Of a stretch of DNA of 39,770 bases, positions 6,708-23,412 are shown piece after piece; the first letter of the stretch is position 1, and each line of letters begins with the position of its first letter. Source of the DNA: a virus (lineage: Duplodnaviria; Heunggongvirae; Uroviricota; Caudoviricetes); the IMG/VR virus record IMGVR_UViG_2778261456_000009, positions 1 to 39,770 of that record, one strand, 5' to 3'. Under the pieces are notes generated by a model. That model made no database searches, was not told the DNA's origin, and saw nothing but the letters and a program-made list of their open reading frames with translations. Position numbers and translations under genes: made by a program.

Positions 6708-7294
6708 TAGCCGCCTCCCAGTAATGACGCCACGTTACCAGTGATGCTTTTCAGCAGTGAAGTATCTGGAGGCTTTGTGGTTTTGTTGCCGCTGTTCTGT
6801 ACCGCCGACGTGCTGGCCCCTTCCTTCATGTTGGTTTTATCCGCGACGGTAATCTGCTGTGTCCGGGAGATAATGACCTCCCTCAGGGTGAGGACGGCGG
6901 ACAGGACGTTTTCGGTTGTCTTGTCCGTCGTCACTTCCAGCGCCCGGATCAACATGTTGCTGTACAGCCGTTTACCGGTTACCACATCGAAGGGGATACG
7001 GCTTTCCTGCAGATCCAGTAGCTCCTGATACGTCTGCTGAGGACTCAGGCCGAGCAGGCTGGTAGCCGTCAGGTTACTGGCAAAATCCAGCAATGCGCCG
7101 CCACCGGCGAAACCAACCTCCATCACCACTTCTGACGGTTTTTTATAGGCATGATCAGCGACAGCGGCCCCGACCTCTACCGGATGCTCTGTTATTTCAA
7201 GCATATCTGTATGCTTCTCTGAAATAACAACACTGGGAACAATCATTCCTATTTTTCTGCTCTGCTGATGAAAAAGTGTAGAGAGAATATCCAC
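6707..7294 (-). CDS. Tail protein (possibly DNA-circulation-like)
   Basis: 195 aa directly downstream of tape measure gene with start/stop overlap. Confidence 0.45.
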   Translation of the reverse strand: MDILSTLFHQQSRKIGMIVPSVVISEKHTDMLEITEHPVEVGAAVADHAYKKPSEVVMEVGFAGGGALLDFASNLTATSLLGLSPQQTYQELLDLQESRIPFDVVTGKRLYSNMLIRALEVTTDKTTENVLSAVLTLREVIISRTQQITVADKTNMKEGASTSAVQNSGNKTTKPPDTSLLKSITGNVASLLGGG

Positions 7295-9279
7295 TAACCC
7301 ACCCTCACCTGATTACTTCGCATGACCTGAGCATTTGCAGACTGTTGCCGACGTGCAACCTCATTACCGACAGCGTGCGGATCTCCGCCACCGTAAATGT
7401 GGTAGGTATTTTGCTGGTTAACCTCTGTCACTTTGCCACTAATTCCCGCCACGGCAGCCTTATTAATCAGCTCTCGAGAATAGATATTTCTTCCATTCTC
7501 ATGCTGGATAATGCTGCTCATCAATGCTGACATGGTTTGCGGATCGCTCATATTCAGGGCAGCCCGGGGATCCACTCCCAGTCGTTGCGATACAGCCCTG
7601 ATATACGCGGTTGTGTTGTTATTATCAGACGCAGGTGCCCAGGTAGAGATAATTTTCTCCACACTGTTTATTCCCCGTCCGGCGTACAGCATTAACTGAC
7701 GAGCAAGAGCCCGTAATCCATCAAAAGCAGTTTCAAATCTGGCAAATCGCCCGCCCGGTCGTTCAAGAGAAGCCCCCGCCTGACCAGCAAAATTAAGGTT
7801 TCCCGGATTGTTATTCCGTTCTCCTCGCTTCGTAGCCTGTGCATGTTGTTCCGGCTCAGCACCTGGAATATCTGACTGAATATTTGCGCCTTTTACGGTA
7901 TGAGGATTACGACCAAAATCGGTATCAATGCCAAGCCAGCGCAATGAATCTCCAATATTTTGTTTCGTGTAATCCCAGGATGACTTCGCACTGGCACCAA
8001 TATTTTCGCGATCGGAGTACAAATAAGCAGCATAAGCCATCCAGCCTTTTAACCATGGCGGTACCGGCAAACCAGATATTTTCCCGAAAGCCCCCAGAAC
8101 CCTGGATACCCAGACACCCGCGATGAATGTACCGAGGATTTCCAGTGCATTTTGCCAGCCGCCAACACCATCTTTTAGTTCCAGAAGGTGATCACGAAGC
8201 CAGGTGATCGCATCCTTCGCTTTATCTATTGCCGGTTGCCATTTTTCCCAGTCGATAAGACTGTTACCGCCTTCTTTCCATGTTTTGTAGTCTTCCCACA
8301 AGAGACCGAGAGCCACGATCAGACCGGTAATCAGCCCTATAGGTGACATCCAGAAAGTAGAGTTAAGTATCCGCATGGCGACAACCAGACCGCCGATAAC
8401 CTCTATCAGGGTTTTCGTTTCGGCATCCAGTTTCCCCCACCACTCGATGATATCTCCGACACCATCGACTATCCGAAATGCTACCCGCCCGACTATCTCA
8501 CCCAGCCAGAGGATCCCCTTTATGACCTTTGTGATGGTGACTTCAATTTTGGGAAAATTTTCAATTATCTTTTTGCGCAGGTTATCAATCTGCCCCGCCA
8601 GTCCGTCCGCAAGATTCGATCCGATTTTGTCCCGCGCCATCCCGGCCATTTCACCGAGCGATTTCAGCGAGGTCATAAACCGGTTTGACGATAAGGCAGC
8701 CTGATCGGCATTAAATCCGATCGCTTTCACCATTTCTGAATACTGAGCGCTGAACTGCCCCACTCCGCGACGCATAGCCATCAGGGTATTTTCGTCAATG
8801 CCCAGCATCTGCGCATACTGGTTAGCCCGGTAATACGGCATGCTGCTGAGTTTCTGTCCAACGCCCGTAAAGATAGCAGCCATGTCACGCATGTTACCGC
8901 TGGCATCACGGGTCTGTACGCCCAGGCGATTCAGAAAGCCTTCTGCTCCGGGATTGTTACGAATAAACCTGGAGAGGCTTTCCAGAGAAGATCGCGCAGC
9001 GTCCACACTGCCGCCAACCTGCGAAACCGCATAGCCAATAGACTGAATTCCCTGGACCGTCGCGCCGGTGCGCTGTGACGCCCAGTAAAGATTATCCAGG
9101 CCGGAGGCGATCTTAGCCGTGAAGGCCACCACGGACAGCGCAGCTCCTTCAACAGCCAGCCCCATTTTGATGACATTTGCAGTTGTACCGGCGAGGACAG
9201 AACCGAACTTTTTCGCTCCTGCATCATCCACACTGAAGCCAAGCGAGACGAGGAAATCTTTAATAGTTTCAGCGTTCAT
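7294..9279 (-). CDS. Tail tape measure protein
   Basis: About 660 aa, Ala/Gly-rich helical N-terminus, central hydrophobic segments, C-terminal globular domain; first ATG at 9279 preceded by GGAGAGAGG (track start at 9300 is TTG). Confidence 0.7.
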   Translation of the reverse strand: MNAETIKDFLVSLGFSVDDAGAKKFGSVLAGTTANVIKMGLAVEGAALSVVAFTAKIASGLDNLYWASQRTGATVQGIQSIGYAVSQVGGSVDAARSSLESLSRFIRNNPGAEGFLNRLGVQTRDASGNMRDMAAIFTGVGQKLSSMPYYRANQYAQMLGIDENTLMAMRRGVGQFSAQYSEMVKAIGFNADQAALSSNRFMTSLKSLGEMAGMARDKIGSNLADGLAGQIDNLRKKIIENFPKIEVTITKVIKGILWLGEIVGRVAFRIVDGVGDIIEWWGKLDAETKTLIEVIGGLVVAMRILNSTFWMSPIGLITGLIVALGLLWEDYKTWKEGGNSLIDWEKWQPAIDKAKDAITWLRDHLLELKDGVGGWQNALEILGTFIAGVWVSRVLGAFGKISGLPVPPWLKGWMAYAAYLYSDRENIGASAKSSWDYTKQNIGDSLRWLGIDTDFGRNPHTVKGANIQSDIPGAEPEQHAQATKRGERNNNPGNLNFAGQAGASLERPGGRFARFETAFDGLRALARQLMLYAGRGINSVEKIISTWAPASDNNNTTAYIRAVSQRLGVDPRAALNMSDPQTMSALMSSIIQHENGRNIYSRELINKAAVAGISGKVTEVNQQNTYHIYGGGDPHAVGNEVARRQQSANAQVMRSNQVRVG

Positions 9280-9909
9280 TATCCTCTCTCCATTTCTCAA
9301 TGCGCCGCTGGTTATCCGCTTTTACCGCCAGATGGTCATTCAAGAGAGCAATGTCATACAAATCGACAGAGCCATCTTTAAGTGCTGTATAGGGAATTAA
9401 CCCGGCGTCAACCGGATTGAGAAGGTAGGACAGCCCGTCCGGCAGGCTGTTAAACGTCAGCCCTGTTGCAGGCTCTGCGTCGTGCTGGTAAGGGGTGTAG
9501 GCAAAAAATTTCCCAGCGAATCGGCGACCACCCGCGCCACCAGATGAAGCATGACCAGCAAGTCAATATCATCAAACATCAGTTCGCCATGGGTAAATAC
9601 CGGCACCCATCCGTCCATATGACGCCGCGATACCACCGCAAGACAGGGATGAATAATCGCATCGGTGTCATCTTCGGTCAGGGAAGACAGTTCCTCAGCG
9701 ATACGCGGGAGCATGGTTTCAAACACCGGTTTTAACTGCTCGAATTTCACGGTGTCGATCTTGCCATCAGCAGGCAAACGGGAGCGAATGCTCCCGAAAT
9801 CTGACATCATTCCCGCCAGTACCGGCAGAAGTTTGCGGGTCACTTTCAGCTGGTCAAAAACGCTGAGTTTTGCCACGCGATATTTCACGCCTTTGATTTC
9901 GAATTCCAT
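9269..9909 (-). CDS. Tail assembly chaperone, predicted -1 frameshift-extended isoform (lambda G-T analogue)
   Basis: From slippery A-AAT-TTT-TTG near 9503-9512 the -1 frame is open for 74 codons (FAYTPYQHDAEPATGLTFNSLPDGLSYLLNPVDAGLIPYTALKDGSVDLYDIALLNDHLAVKADNQRRIEKWREDNER) to TGA at 9269-9271; hand-translated. Confidence 0.45.
9457..9909 (-). CDS. Tail assembly chaperone (zero-frame product)
   Basis: 150 aa between tail tube and tape measure genes, acidic; canonical position of chaperone. Confidence 0.6.
   Translation of the reverse strand: MEFEIKGVKYRVAKLSVFDQLKVTRKLLPVLAGMMSDFGSIRSRLPADGKIDTVKFEQLKPVFETMLPRIAEELSSLTEDDTDAIIHPCLAVVSRRHMDGWVPVFTHGELMFDDIDLLVMLHLVARVVADSLGNFLPTPLTSTTQSLQQG
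9500..9513 (-). promoter_or_regulatory. Candidate -1 ribosomal slippery site
   Basis: Coding strand GGA-AAT-TTT-TTG (plus strand GGCAAAAAATTTCC); fits X-XXY-YYZ heptamer A-AAT-TTT, about 17 codons before the zero-frame stop. Confidence 0.45.
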
Positions 9910-9912
9910 GTA

Positions 9913-10353
9913 TTAAAACTCCCCGAGAACCTGGTCAATCTTGCCGCAGTCAAACACCCACGGCATCGTATTACCGGTTTTAGCGTTGGCGTTATCCGGT
10001 TGTTTCTGGAACGCAACACTGCGTGCCGTGATGATGTCGCCGCTGACCTTGTTGCGGATCACGATAACGTTATTCCCCCATGTGGCAGAAGACTGGCTCT
10101 GTGCGTTATACGCCAGCGACAATTTTTTATTTGTCGGTGATGTCTTCAGAAGGTTAACGGTAATCGTCCCGCTTTTATCTGCATGGAGACTGTGCATCAC
10201 TTCACCATCAGCACCGATGGTCATGGTGTTTTTAGGACCGCCCATCGCAACCACAATCCCCTCTTCAGAACTTGCCGAACCGTACCCAAGGTCAATCGAA
10301 CCGGTCGGCCCGGTCAGCGTCGCAGTGACATCCATAAAAGAATAGGTAGACAT
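9913..10353 (-). CDS. Tail tube protein
   Basis: 146 aa immediately downstream of sheath gene; typical sheath-tube-chaperone-tape measure order. Confidence 0.65.
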   Translation of the reverse strand: MSTYSFMDVTATLTGPTGSIDLGYGSASSEEGIVVAMGGPKNTMTIGADGEVMHSLHADKSGTITVNLLKTSPTNKKLSLAYNAQSQSSATWGNNVIVIRNKVSGDIITARSVAFQKQPDNANAKTGNTMPWVFDCGKIDQVLGEF

Positions 10354-10363
10354 TCACTTCCCC

Positions 10364-11509
10364 TTAGCGAACAACGTTAATCTGTACGTCAGCGTAATGA
10401 ACCGCGCCTGCAAGTTTTATTGCAGCCTGAATCACCGGAGCCTTACGGGCTTCACGCTCTGATTGTGCCTGTTCATCCAGCGGCTGGGCGTATACGTAAT
10501 AACCTTTGGGCAGCGTGTCACCTGATGACAACTGGCCAAGGTCGCCACCGTTCCATACGCCCGGAGCAATCAGTCCATTCTGAACGGCCTGATCCAGTGA
10601 TTTTTCAACATTTGATAACAGTCGGGTAATACCGGCTTCAGTCTGGGGAACCTTCGTGGTGCTGGTATAAAGCAGGTTATAGAGGTTGGTCTGCACATAA
10701 TTCTGTAACCAGTCCAGGCCGTGGCGTTCATCAAAGAAATCGCCGTTAGCCATCACTCCCTGCTGGAGGATAGCTGTATCATTCTGGTAGTACACGAACA
10801 CATTGCAGTTTTTTGCATCAAGTGCCGATGCCTGACTGACTGTCAGTGTTTCATACCCGACACCCGGCTCCTGCTTAAACTTGAGCGTAATCGCGGTATT
10901 ACTGCCATTGAAATTAACCGTGAATGCCCGGCCAAATGCAGATAACGCAGCGTATTTATTACCCGATGAATACTGAATAAAACTGCGTGAATATCCGGCG
11001 GTTTTCAGTTTTGATGCCAAATCATCTCTGGATGCAGTCTGCAGGCATTTCTCATCGCTTGTCGTAATCGCCAGAATACGGCTTACAGAAGAGGATTCGA
11101 TCGCCGCAGCCACTTTCAGCCAGTCTGCATCCGGAATATCTGCATCGTCTGCAATCCCCAGCCCATACCATGAAGTATAATCAAGCATGGCATTCACAGC
11201 CTGCTCCAGCGTCTCAGGCGTGGCCTGTTCGCTGTCTCCCTTCGTTTTCACCCAACGACCAACAAAAACCTCCTGAGGTTTCGGTGATTGTGAGAAAAAC
11301 ACCTGCGCAGCTTTATATTCTGGTGATTCCACGCCAAAATCTTTTCCAATATCTTCCGCGGCAGAATAACGACGAATGCGCTCACTTACCGGAATGATTG
11401 TGGACGGGCCGAGAATGAGTAATGCACCAAAATTTCGCCCTGATGCTGCACGCGGCGACATGATCACATCAACATTAACAACGTTTGATACAGGCAAGCC
11501 CTGTGCCAT
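10364..11509 (-). CDS. Tail sheath protein
   Basis: 381 aa; position and size typical of contractile-tail sheath. Confidence 0.7.
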
Positions 11510-22582: not shown

Positions 22583-23125
22583 TCAAGCTATTTTTTGAGC
22601 AAATGATTCTCGCATGGGAATATATAGGACATACTCAGCAACTGCCAACCAATTAGCAATTCGCTTTTCGCATGTGCTAAAACACCACTCAGGATGTGCA
22701 TCATTCAGCAATTCAGCCATTTTGCGCTTAGTCATCCCCCGCCCTTCATACCGTTGCCGGAGGACACTAATCAATCCAGGATGCTCTGCCAGCACCTCAC
22801 TTATGACTCGATCAATACATAACGCCTCTGCATCAGTACAATGCGCCAGCCAGGTCTTTTGCTTGCCATTGATCATCTCTCGCAAAAACGCTTCCAGCTC
22901 AATTTTATCCATTCCCGCTTTTTTCATTCTGCGCAGGGCTTCATTGATGGCTGTTTTCGTCAATTTTTTGGATGCCAGCAACTGGTTAAACATATTCCCC
23001 GTCTTACCGCCGCCAATATACGACCAGCGCCCCCACATGCGCAGTTTTCCCTGAATCCAGACACTTTCCAGCGTGGTGAGACGAAGGTGTTCCCCGCTTT
23101 TGCCTGTATTTGTTGGGTAAATCAT
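22583..23125 (-). CDS. Putative late-gene antiterminator (Q-like) by position
   Basis: 180 aa from ATG at 23125 (ATGA overlap with upstream gene); occupies Q position between nin-like genes and late leader; family not confirmed. Confidence 0.45.
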   Translation of the reverse strand: MIYPTNTGKSGEHLRLTTLESVWIQGKLRMWGRWSYIGGGKTGNMFNQLLASKKLTKTAINEALRRMKKAGMDKIELEAFLREMINGKQKTWLAHCTDAEALCIDRVISEVLAEHPGLISVLRQRYEGRGMTKRKMAELLNDAHPEWCFSTCEKRIANWLAVAEYVLYIPMRESFAQKIA

Positions 23126-23412
23126 AAATAACCTTCCTTTCTCCAGATTTCTTGCGTACGAAAAACACCTTCTGCGTGCATCAGGCGTAATTCTTCTTTG
23201 GTGTAATCGCTGGTTTTTACCCGCCCGTCGATTAAATCGTGGCACGAGCTACAGGCAATCGCTGCCTGCATATCGTGTGGCTTTATCGCTGTTCCGCACG
23301 TTCCCGCCAGTCGGTAATGCGCCAGCACAGACGTTTCGGGATTGTGATTGCAGTAGCCAGGGATTCTGACCTGGCACATCTGGCCCCGCGCTGCTTTACG
23401 TAAATCCACCAT
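23122..23412 (-). CDS. ybcO: YbcO-like Cys-rich DUF1364 protein
   Basis: 96 aa, matches recalled DLP12 YbcO pattern (DLRKAARG..CQVRIPG.CN.NPETSVLAH...IACSSCHD). Confidence 0.7.
   Translation of the reverse strand: MVDLRKAARGQMCQVRIPGYCNHNPETSVLAHYRLAGTCGTAIKPHDMQAAIACSSCHDLIDGRVKTSDYTKEELRLMHAEGVFRTQEIWRKEGYL

What the first reader, a model, noticed from the sequence alone, without database searches (positions are those of the whole stretch)
9269..9909. Programmed -1 frameshift in the tail assembly chaperone bridging the apparent gap to the tape-measure gene
The chaperone ORF ends at 9457, leaving about 155 bp before the tape-measure start. Near its 3' end the coding strand reads GGA-AAT-TTT-TTG, which fits the X-XXY-YYZ slippery pattern. 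Hand translation of the -1 frame from there gives 74 sense codons with no stop until TGA at 9269-9271, just inside the tape-measure start. This reproduces the conserved G/GT chaperone arrangement and explains the unannotated gap.
Basis: seen in the sequence. Interest (0 to 1): 0.7.

Follow-up and report, generated by a model that had tools for sequence, protein, structure and literature searches.

The report
Tail chaperone frameshift, unannotated but ordinary
The apparent gap between the tail chaperone gene and the tape-measure gene of this E. coli prophage is the out-of-frame second half of the chaperone gene, reached by a -1 ribosomal slip. This is the textbook phage G/GT arrangement; it is missed or mis-split in most public annotations of this phage group.

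Summary
On the minus strand the 150-aa tail assembly chaperone (9909..9457) contains the in-phase run G_GGA_AAT_TTT_TTG (9514..9502). From that run the -1 frame stays open for 77 more codons, to TGA 9271..9269, which lies inside the tape-measure start (ATG 9279).

The extension is 77 codons, not 74. The fused product is 213 aa, not about 208.

The extension is a real coding sequence:
- It matches Pfam DUF6889 (E=1e-20).
- In 51 unique relatives its variation peaks at the third codon position of the -1 frame.
- It has no conserved start codon of its own.
- The slippery run is held by strongly biased synonymous codons in 78 diverse Enterobacterales loci.
- More distant relatives (Acinetobacter, Burkholderia, Ralstonia, Bordetella phages) keep a heptamer at the same alignment position.

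No stimulatory RNA structure was found, as reported for P2 E/E+E'.

GenBank already annotates the joined frameshift product for the homologous gene of Klebsiella phage Mulock, which has the identical run, and for Burkholderia phage Magia. SEN34-like phage records leave the gap empty, and RefSeq calls a stand-alone 54-aa "DUF6889" ORF there.

Verdict: a real but ordinary new member of a known kind. Its value is in correcting annotation.

The parts
9457..9909 (-). Tail assembly chaperone, 0-frame product (150 aa, the 'G-like' or TAC-N form), stop TGA 9459-9457
   Evidence: ORF list and translation. Pfam PF21822 Phage_TAC_15 E=1.2e-30. PHROG 1688 'tail assembly chaperone' E=8.4e-65.
9502..9514 (-). 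Slippery run G_GGA_AAT_TTT_TTG, holding three overlapping in-phase heptamers: G_GGA_AAT (9514-9508), A_AAT_TTT (9511-9505) and T_TTT_TTG (9508-9502)
   Evidence: Phase verified. T_TTT_TTN is kept in 78 of 79 loci. Codon choice at the site against background in the same genes: GGA 71/78 (9%), AAT 72/72 Asn (42%), TTT 77/77 Phe (54%), TTG 73/74 Leu (12%). All 80 close IMG/VR relatives have T6.
9269..9502 (-). -1 frame extension (77 sense codons plus TGA 9271-9269), the 'T-like' C-terminal part of the 213-aa fusion. The stretch 9502..9457 overlaps the 0-frame tail of the chaperone.
   Evidence: Translation. Variation peaks at -1-frame position 3 downstream of the 0-frame stop: 1.37 against 0.69 and 0.58 bits. 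No canonical start codon lies before codon 49 of the extension.
9278..9394 (-). Conserved DUF6889 domain within the -1 extension (residues 41-79 of the 81-aa -1-frame piece that starts at 9514)
   Evidence: Pfam PF21829 at 73.3 bits against a cut-off of 23.9, E=1.3e-20. PHROG 4364, function unknown, E=2e-23. AlphaFold pLDDT is 74-82 and helical for this part only.
7294..9279 (-). Tape-measure protein gene (661 aa from ATG 9279). Its start overlaps the -1 stop by 11 nt (ATGAACGCTGA).
   Evidence: ORF list. Weak PF10145 match. Named tail length tape measure protein in SEN34 RefSeq. The overlap of ATG and -1 stop is conserved: -11 nt in 50 loci, -8 in 9 and -4 in 8, of 79.
9913..10353 (-). Tail tube protein gene immediately upstream (context)
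   Evidence: Pfam PF11681 KPP10_Orf10 / Phage_Tube_PhiTE, E=8.8e-61.
10364..11509 (-). Tail sheath gene (context)
   Evidence: Pfam PF11863 DUF3383, E=4e-101. Named 'tail sheath' in SEN34 RefSeq.

Best explanation
This is a programmed -1 ribosomal frameshift of the phage G/GT (TAC-N/TAC-NC) type, in the tail assembly chaperone gene of a SEN34-like (Brunovirus-related) myovirus prophage of E. coli.

Proposed mechanism:
1. Most ribosomes read codons 133-136 (GGA AAU UUU UUG) normally and stop at UGA 9459-9457. This gives the 150-aa chaperone.
2. A minority slip back one base on the run. The slipping pair is either tRNA-Asn/tRNA-Phe on A_AAU_UUU or tRNA-Phe/tRNA-Leu on U_UUU_UUG; G_GGA_AAU is a third possibility.
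3. Those ribosomes read 77 further codons in the -1 frame. They stop at UGA 9271-9269, on top of the tape-measure start codon.
4. The result is a 213-aa protein: the same N-terminal 135-136 residues plus a C-terminal DUF6889 domain.

The expected function is by analogy with lambda gpG/gpGT. The shared N-terminal part would coat the tape-measure protein and the frameshift-only domain would recruit the tail tube protein. A fixed low fusion-to-chaperone ratio would then be set by slip efficiency alone, because no RNA stimulator is present.

Shown here: the sequence anatomy, its conservation, the coding signature and the domain match. Inferred: that slipping occurs, that it is ribosomal, which heptamer is used, the ratio, and the binding roles.
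For: - Anatomy and phase.
- Chaperone identity and gene order of tube, chaperone, tape measure.
- The -1 extension matches Pfam DUF6889 at 73 bits.
- In 79 evaluable loci 38-85% identical to the chaperone (window plus L006-L085, less two with a broken TAC ORF), 78 keep T_TTT_TTN and 76 keep a 75-82-codon -1 ORF that ends on the tape-measure ATG.
- When the residue before Phe changes (Asn to Ser, Gly or Asp), its third base stays T.
- In L040, L070, L075 and L078 the -1 frame has a stop immediately before the T run. Entry into the -1 frame must therefore occur on the run itself.
- Synonymous codons at the site are fixed against the genes' own usage.
- The substitution pattern switches from 0-frame periodicity upstream of the site to -1-frame periodicity after the 0-frame stop.
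- 58 of 76 unique loci have no ATG, GTG or TTG between the slip site and the conserved LPxG motif, and the position of the first possible start is scattered.
- Distant relatives keep a heptamer at the same alignment position: A_AAT_TTT in Acinetobacter, C_CCT_TTT in Burkholderia, G_GGT_TTT/T_TTT_TTC in Ralstonia, T_TTT_TTT in Providencia and G_GGA_AAT in Bordetella.
- The joined frameshift CDS is already deposited for Klebsiella phage Mulock, which has the identical GGGAAATTTTTTG, and for Burkholderia phage Magia.
- One assembly with T7 instead of T6 encodes exactly the predicted fusion as a single ORF (P0001/L166).
- Literature: P2 E/E+E' slips on TTTTTTG without a hairpin (PMC3091744). The lambda G/GT mechanism and its 30:1 ratio are described in PMC5009743. 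UUN A-site codons and R_RR.U_UU.Y motifs are frameshift-prone in E. coli (PMC4066793).
Against: - There is no experimental evidence for the fusion protein in this phage group. The SEN34 paper does not mention frameshift, chaperone or tape measure.
- No downstream hairpin or pseudoknot and no conserved structure was found (z = -0.4; alifold -2.5 kcal/mol). Efficiency may therefore be low.
- U_UUU_UUG has a heterogeneous A-site codon, which PMC4066793 ranks as less shifty.
- The extension shows no detectable sequence similarity to the lambda T or P2 E' families; only DUF6889 is hit.
- The structure model was too poor to test fold similarity.
- A few loci break the pattern: L039 has a truncated -1 ORF, L075 is degraded, L167 has T5, and IAI1 has a 1-nt deletion inside the extension. 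All are compatible with decaying prophages.
Confidence: 0.88

Rival explanations
1. The DUF6889 region is an independent small gene, as RefSeq/PGAP annotates it: a 54-aa ORF from CTG 9433 to TGA 9269, translated from its own non-canonical start and not fused to the chaperone.
For: PGAP calls WP_071819661.1 'DUF6889 family protein' at this position in E. coli genomes. Databases hold many stand-alone 46-78-aa versions. PHROG 4364 is a 54-position profile.
Against: - The called starts differ widely between records (46, 48, 50, 54, 58, 62, 63, 73 and 78 aa).
- The window has no ATG, GTG or TTG in this frame until codon 49 of the extension. 58 of 76 unique loci have none before the conserved LPxG motif, which lies upstream of the PGAP start.
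- Conserved residues continue upstream of the PGAP start, and -1-frame coding periodicity is present after the 0-frame stop.
- No promoter-like or terminator-like site lies in the gap.
- This reading does not explain why the slippery run is fixed by rare synonymous codons.
- It does not explain why the -1 frame is closed just upstream of the run in some loci yet open from it.
Confidence: 0.04
2. The fusion is made by transcriptional slippage. RNA polymerase adds one extra U on the T6 tract, and standard translation of the U7 mRNA gives the 213-aa protein.
For: The site is a homopolymer run. A DNA-level T7 variant encodes exactly the fusion. Poly-T-like signals in other chaperone genes have prompted proposals of non-ribosomal mechanisms (Vladimirov et al. 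2022, as cited in PMC12846349).
Against: - Efficient bacterial transcriptional slippage is described for runs of about 9 A or T, comparable to the 9-10-bp RNA-DNA hybrid (PMC5009743). This run has 6 T.
- Distant relatives keep heptamers with only 4 T (A_AAT_TTT, C_CCT_TTT) or none (G_GGA_AAT in Bordetella IFTN9). These fit tandem tRNA re-pairing and not polymerase slippage.
- Selection on GGA and AAT upstream of the T run is explained by codon-anticodon re-pairing, not by homopolymer length.
Confidence: 0.05
3. There is no function. The open -1 frame and the heptamer are coincidental, and the gap is a non-coding spacer.
For: In-phase heptamers near ORF ends are not rare: 7 of 79 ORFs in this window have one.
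Against: Pfam and PHROG domain matches. -1-frame codon periodicity. Conservation of the ORF and the run across genera and orders.
Confidence: 0.01

Closest known systems
Bacteriophage lambda gpG / gpGT (Levin, Hendrix and Casjens 1993; Xu, Hendrix and Duda 2004, 2013, 2014)
   Same: - Two overlapping ORFs lie between the major tail gene and the tape-measure gene.
[quoted passage not shown]
- No stimulatory structure was detected here; lambda is recalled from memory to need none.
- The first heptamer here, G_GGA_AAT, differs from lambda's G_GGA_AAG (recalled from memory, not tool-verified) only in the last base.
- The lambda mechanism and ratio are described in PMC5009743.
   Different: - There is no detectable sequence similarity. 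The window proteins hit PF21822 and DUF6889, not the lambda G or T families.
- The host virion is a contractile-tail myovirus with sheath and tube.
- Three overlapping heptamers are present rather than one.
- The protein ratio and binding partners are untested.
Bacteriophage P2 E / E+E' (Christie et al. 2002)
   Same: A myovirus tail chaperone pair made by a -1 shift on the identical heptamer TTTTTTG, with no downstream hairpin (PMC3091744).
   Different: The proteins are smaller (91 and 142 aa) and unrelated in sequence at the level tested; no Pfam P2 GpE hit was seen. P2 lacks the flanking GGGAAA extension of the slippery run.
Klebsiella phage Mulock CPT_Mulock_014/015 and Burkholderia phage Magia CPT_Magia_015/016 (GenBank MN098327, MT701587)
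   Same: These are true homologues. The Mulock -1 extension is about 65% identical to the window's. Mulock has the identical GGGAAATTTTTTG run, and its deposited joined CDS ('tape measure chaperone frameshift product') ends where the -1 ORF ends. Magia has C_CCT_TTT at the same position and is also annotated as a join.
   Different: These annotations are predictions only. The E. coli prophage, SEN34, YP3 and vB_EcoM-606R2 records lack the join.
Pakpunavirus / Vandenendeviridae TAC-N/TAC-NC locus (Pseudomonas phage Adele, PMC12846349)
   Same: - The tail module is related: the window's tube protein matches Pfam KPP10_Orf10, a family named after a Pseudomonas phage.
- The downstream ORF is routinely mis-annotated as a separate hypothetical protein.
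- A conserved poly-T slip motif (GTTTTT) and an uninterrupted -1 frame are used as evidence.
   Different: The phage family is different (lytic Pseudomonas phages). Homology of its C-terminal domain to DUF6889 was not tested here.

Membership tests
Phage tail assembly chaperone G/GT-type programmed -1 frameshift (Xu, Hendrix and Duda 2004) | Gene pair located between the major tail/tube gene and the tape-measure gene, same strand | tested here: met
   Tube 9913-10353, chaperone 9457-9909, extension 9269-9502 and tape measure 7294-9279, all on the minus strand.
Phage tail assembly chaperone G/GT-type programmed -1 frameshift (Xu, Hendrix and Duda 2004) | [quoted passage not shown] | tested here: met
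   Three overlapping in-phase heptamers at 9514-9502, 14-17 codons before the stop.
Phage tail assembly chaperone G/GT-type programmed -1 frameshift (Xu, Hendrix and Duda 2004) | Downstream ORF in the -1 frame, without its own conserved start, extending to the tape-measure gene | tested here: met
   77 codons ending 11 nt inside the tape-measure ORF. No conserved start codon.
Phage tail assembly chaperone G/GT-type programmed -1 frameshift (Xu, Hendrix and Duda 2004) | Slip site and -1 ORF conserved among diverged relatives, with a protein-coding substitution pattern in the -1 frame | tested here: met
   78 of 79 loci keep T_TTT_TTN and 76 of 79 keep the -1 ORF. Codon-position entropy. Codon bias at the site. 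Distant phages.
Phage tail assembly chaperone G/GT-type programmed -1 frameshift (Xu, Hendrix and Duda 2004) | Both the short and the frameshift-extended protein are made, at a fixed low ratio, and both are needed for tail assembly | not testable with these tools
   Needs mass spectrometry, western blot, reporter assays and genetics. No paper on this phage group reports it.
Pfam PF21822 Phage_TAC_15 / PHROG 1688 (tail assembly chaperone) | Score above the curated cut-off over the full domain | tested here: met
   107 bits against a cut-off of 22, profile positions 1-122 of 127. PHROG 1688 E=8.4e-65.
Pfam PF21829 DUF6889 | Score above the curated cut-off | tested here: met
   73.3 bits against a cut-off of 23.9, profile positions 2-40 of 40, on the -1-frame translation.
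Lambda gpG/gpT or P2 gpE/E' sequence families | Detectable sequence homology to these chaperone or T-domain families | tested here: not met
   The Pfam scan at E<=0.1 returned only PF21822 and PF21829. No PDB sequence relative was found. Fold comparison was not possible because the model had mean pLDDT 49.8.
Stimulated -1 frameshift signals (dnaX/IS911/IS3 type) | Downstream hairpin or pseudoknot 5-9 nt after the heptamer (these types may also carry an upstream SD-like element; not formally scanned here) | tested here: not met
   Downstream folds are no better than shuffles (z = -0.42 and -0.45). The alignment fold of 29 loci gives -2.5 kcal/mol with one covarying pair. No Rfam match. The upstream SD-like element was not formally scanned.

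The most novel reading that the evidence does not exclude
The 13-nt run is a redundant 'shift zone' rather than a single heptamer. Its three overlapping in-phase heptamers are each retained alone in some lineage: T_TTT_TTG only in some Erwinia/Kalamiella loci, X_XXT_TTT only in Acinetobacter and Burkholderia phages, and G_GGA_AAT only in Bordetella phage IFTN9 and one Salmonella locus. In the E. coli prophage more than one heptamer may be used. That would give two junction isoforms (…GNFF-A… and …GNFL-A…) and a summed, stimulator-free frameshift rate that sets the chaperone ratio.
Probability: 0.3. Interest if true: 0.3.

Novelty: new member of a known kind. Interest (0 to 1): 0.15.

Why it matters
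The main value is annotation quality.
- The element is present in 315 of 5426 complete E. coli genomes and in many Salmonella, Klebsiella, Enterobacter, Pantoea and Photorhabdus prophages.
- GenBank records of SEN34-like phages leave the region empty.
- RefSeq splits off an artificial 54-aa "DUF6889 family protein" with a CTG start.
- Older records name the fragment "NTP pyrophosphohydrolase".

Recognising DUF6889 as the frameshift-only C-terminal domain of the Phage_TAC_15 chaperones would have three effects. It would give this domain of unknown function a role. It would correct hundreds of records. It would expose real defects that the stand-alone call hides, such as the 1-nt deletion in the E. 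coli IAI1 copy.

Biologically it adds nothing new in kind to the G/GT paradigm.

Tried and rejected
- **Downstream stimulatory structure.** MFE folds of 9400-9508 and 9440-9501 are no better than shuffles. RNAalifold on 29 diverse loci found essentially nothing. Rfam had no relevant hit.
- **Regulatory intergenic region.** No promoter-like or terminator-like sites lie in 9150-10000.
- **Natural in-frame fusions as 'Rosetta stone' evidence.** Only P0001 was found, a T7 variant in one Logan assembly. It may be a homopolymer error, so it is treated as weak evidence. The search with the extension alone returned only short stand-alone ORFs.
- **Structure.** The AlphaFold2 model of P0001, built with a 44-row alignment, had mean pLDDT 49.8 and pTM 0.29. 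Only the DUF6889 helices reached 74-82. No fold search was run because the matches would be meaningless. The PDB sequence search gave no relatives.
- **NCBIfam.** No model matched either part.
- **Within-window background control for open -1 frames.** It was confounded by spurious antisense ORFs and by neighbouring genes, so it was used only to show that heptamers alone are common.
- **Single functional heptamer.** T_TTT_TTG alone was initially favoured. This was abandoned when distant relatives turned out to keep only the first or second heptamer and the GGA codon proved to be under selection.
- **Upstream nucleotide invariance.** The 45 nt upstream of the run are invariant in the four closest sequences. 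This dissolves in the broader alignment, where third positions vary, so no upstream RNA element is claimed.
Full report
**1. The observation**

All features below are on the minus strand.
- The ORF 9909..9457 encodes a 150-aa protein ending ...VVADSLGNFLPTPLTSTTQSLQQG*.
- Codons 133-136 are GGA AAT TTT TTG (9513..9502), preceded by G at 9514. The run GGGAAATTTTTTG therefore contains three overlapping in-phase X_XXY_YYZ heptamers: G_GGA_AAT, A_AAT_TTT and T_TTT_TTG.
- The -1 frame reads GKFFAYTPYQHDAEPATGLTFNSLPDGLSYLLNPVDAGLIPYTALKDGSVDLYDIALLNDHLAVKADNQRRIEKWREDNER and stops at TGA 9271..9269.
- That stop lies inside the tape-measure ORF, whose ATG is at 9279 (ATGAACGCTGA).

The counts need small corrections: 77 sense codons follow the slip, not 74. 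The fusion is 213 aa, not about 208. The gap to the ATG is 177 nt.

**2. What the parts are**

- The 150-aa protein is a tail assembly chaperone: Pfam PF21822 E=1e-30 and PHROG 1688 E=8e-65.
- The upstream genes are the tube (PF11681) and the sheath (PF11863/DUF3383).
- The downstream 661-aa protein is the tape measure.
- The 81-aa -1-frame translation matches Pfam DUF6889 at 73.3 bits against a cut-off of 23.9, and PHROG 4364.

The window is an E. coli prophage.
- Near-identical DNA occurs in 315 of 5426 complete E. coli genomes, and in Escherichia phages vB_EcoM-606R2, 689R2, 611R5 and 683R1 at 98.5% identity.
- Yersinia phage YP3 matches at 83% and Salmonella phage SEN34 (Brunovirus) at 74.5%.
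- SEN34 is a myovirus with lambda-like early genes (PMC5261728).

**3. State of annotation**

- The SEN34, YP3 and 606R2 records leave 177 nt unannotated between chaperone and tape measure.
- RefSeq/PGAP places a stand-alone 54-aa "DUF6889 family protein" (WP_071819661.1) there. It corresponds to CTG 9433 through TGA 9269.
- The protein database holds this region only as short ORFs of 46-78 aa with inconsistent N-termini. They are named "DUF6889 family protein" or, wrongly, "NTP pyrophosphohydrolase".

**4. Comparative test**

Eighty loci from GTDB species representatives were fetched with a chaperone alignment. They come from Enterobacter, Citrobacter, Pantoea, Erwinia, Photorhabdus, Serratia, Yersinia, Arsenophonus, Sodalis and others, and are 38-85% identical to the chaperone.

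*Conservation of the run and the -1 ORF (79 evaluable loci including the window)*
- 73 have T_TTT_TTG, 4 have T_TTT_TTT and 1 has T_TTT_TTA. One (L024) has a broken T run but an intact G_GGA_AAT.
- 76 have a -1 ORF of 75-82 codons.
- The -1 stop overlaps the tape-measure ATG by 11 nt in 50 loci, 8 nt in 9 and 4 nt in 8.

*Evidence that the run itself is the entry point*
- Where the residue before Phe changes (Asn to Ser, Gly or Asp), its third base remains T.
- In L040, L070, L075 and L078 the -1 frame carries a stop immediately before the T run, so entry into the -1 frame must occur on the run.

*Codon choice at the site against the same genes' background*

| Codon | At the site | Background |
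|---|---|---|
| GGA (Gly) | 71/78 | 9% |
| AAT (Asn) | 72/72 | 42% |
| TTT (Phe) | 77/77 | 54% |
| TTG (Leu) | 73/74 | 12% |

*Substitution pattern and start codons*
- Per-column entropy in 51 unique sequences peaks at 0-frame third positions upstream of the site (1.08 against 0.52 and 0.26 bits).
- After the 0-frame stop it peaks at -1-frame third positions (1.37 against 0.69 and 0.58 bits).
- 58 of 76 unique loci have no ATG, GTG or TTG in the -1 frame between the slip site and the conserved LPxG motif. The first possible start is scattered between codons 16 and 61.

All 80 close relatives in IMG/VR have T6.

**5. Deeper relatives**

A tblastn search of the extension against phage genomes found 39 records. 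A heptamer sits at the same alignment position (the G-N-F motif) in each one examined:

| Phage | Heptamer(s) at the G-N-F position |
|---|---|
| Klebsiella phage Mulock, Hafnia phage yong1 | Full GGGAAATTTTTTG run |
| Acinetobacter A785.1 | G_GGA_AAT + A_AAT_TTT |
| Acinetobacter MD-2021a | A_AAT_TTT only |
| Burkholderia Magia, BgManors32 | C_CCT_TTT only |
| Ralstonia PY059YO380 | G_GGT_TTT + T_TTT_TTC |
| Providencia PSTCR3 | T_TTT_TTT |
| Bordetella IFTN9 | G_GGA_AAT only |

Each of the three heptamers is therefore sufficient in some lineage. I cannot say which is used in the window.

E. coli reporter data rank UUN and AAN A-site codons and R_RR.U_UU.Y motifs as frameshift-prone, and heterogeneous A-site codons such as UUG as weaker (PMC4066793). 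That mildly favours A_AAU_UUU. P2 E/E+E' uses TTTTTTG (PMC3091744).

**6. Already recognised in homologues**

GenBank MN098327 (Klebsiella phage Mulock) carries a joined CDS, "tape measure chaperone frameshift product". It starts at the chaperone ATG and ends at the -1 stop. MT701587 (Burkholderia phage Magia) does the same and cites Mulock.

A 2025 paper makes the same argument for the related Pakpunavirus tail module, with a GTTTTT motif (PMC12846349).

**7. Stimulators**

- Folds downstream of the run are no better than shuffles (z = -0.42 and -0.45).
- The consensus fold of 29 diverse loci is -2.5 kcal/mol with one covarying pair.
- Rfam gives nothing relevant.

This matches what is reported for P2 and its Burkholderia relatives. 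It predicts low, motif-only efficiency.

**8. Mechanism and rivals**

The best explanation is ribosomal -1 slippage giving a 150-aa major product and a 213-aa minor product. By analogy with lambda, the shared N-terminal part would bind the tape measure and the DUF6889 domain would recruit the tube protein (PMC5009743). These binding roles are inferred, not tested.

| Rival | Main evidence against |
|---|---|
| Independent initiation | No conserved start codon; conserved residues continue upstream of the PGAP start; rare synonymous codons fix the run |
| Transcriptional slippage | The run has 6 T against about 9 needed; relatives have only 4 T or none at the site |
| Chance | Domain match and -1-frame codon periodicity |

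**9. Exceptions and curiosities**

- P0001/L166 has T7 and encodes the predicted fusion as one ORF.
- L167 has T5 in a prophage with broken neighbouring genes.
- E. coli IAI1 has a 1-nt deletion (GGG to GG) inside the extension, just before the PGAP start. It would break the fusion and is hidden by the stand-alone call.
- L039 and L075 have truncated extensions.

**10. Verdict**

The finding is real and correctly interpreted. It is an unannotated instance of a textbook mechanism whose homologue is already annotated elsewhere. It is a new member of a known kind and of low scientific interest (0.15). It is useful for re-annotating DUF6889 as the frameshift-only C-terminal domain of Phage_TAC_15 chaperones.

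Noticed in passing
L004 (E. coli IAI1, NC_011741.1) about 2465, equivalent to window about 9436: IAI1 carries a 1-nt deletion (GGACGGGCTG to GGAC-GGCTG) inside the -1 extension, just upstream of the PGAP-called CTG start. It would put the DUF6889 domain out of frame with the frameshift product. The stand-alone 'DUF6889 family protein' annotation hides this probable defect.
   Followed up: partly
L166 (Logan SRR23924998 contig) 1597-1612; L167 (GCA_030370565.1) about 1606-1616: These are homopolymer-length variants of the slippery run. L166 has T7, giving a single 213-aa in-frame chaperone-DUF6889 ORF (P0001, a cluster of 16 sequences). L167 has T5, giving a 159-aa chaperone with a +1-frame tail, in a prophage whose sheath and tape-measure genes look truncated. 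I could not tell real mutations from sequencing errors.
   Followed up: partly
Database proteins P0122, P0124, P0125, P0127, P0129, P0132, P0133, P0135, P0145: Many NCBI records name the stand-alone fragment of the -1 extension 'NTP pyrophosphohydrolase'. Nothing found here supports this name, and it appears to be propagated mis-annotation.
   Followed up: no
window 9457-9502 (minus strand), overlap of the 0 and -1 frames: In the overlap zone, variation across relatives is highest at the -1-frame third position (1.23 against 0.97 and 0.73 bits). The region therefore evolves more like -1-frame coding. The chaperone's own C-terminal tail after the slip site varies in sequence and length, with total lengths of 132-151 aa.
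   Followed up: partly
window 9269-9300 (minus strand): The -1 stop codon overlaps the tape-measure start (ATGAACGCTGA). The tape-measure Shine-Dalgarno-like GGAGAGAGG lies inside the last codons of the extension. The overlap is conserved (-11 nt in 50 loci, -8 in 9 and -4 in 8, of 79), which suggests translational coupling of the tape measure to the upstream reading frames.
   Followed up: partly
window 22614-23054 (+ strand): Another in-phase TTTTTTG occurs near the 3' end of a 146-aa ORF. That ORF is antisense to a longer 220-aa minus-strand ORF (22583-23245) and looks spurious, so this is not a second frameshift candidate.
   Followed up: yes
L017 (CACSKA010000001.1, 'Chryseobacterium sp. 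18061') and L178 (Elizabethkingia phage EKP1, OM284015): Enterobacterial-type chaperone loci occur in records assigned to Flavobacteriia hosts. They carry the identical slippery run and are 65-69% identical to the window proteins. Possible explanations are mis-assigned or contaminated records, or an unusually broad distribution.
   Followed up: no
L168 (Klebsiella phage Mulock MN098327) 1139-2046: The Mulock record labels the tape-measure gene itself 'tape measure chaperone'. This is a labelling slip next to the correctly joined frameshift CDS.
   Followed up: no
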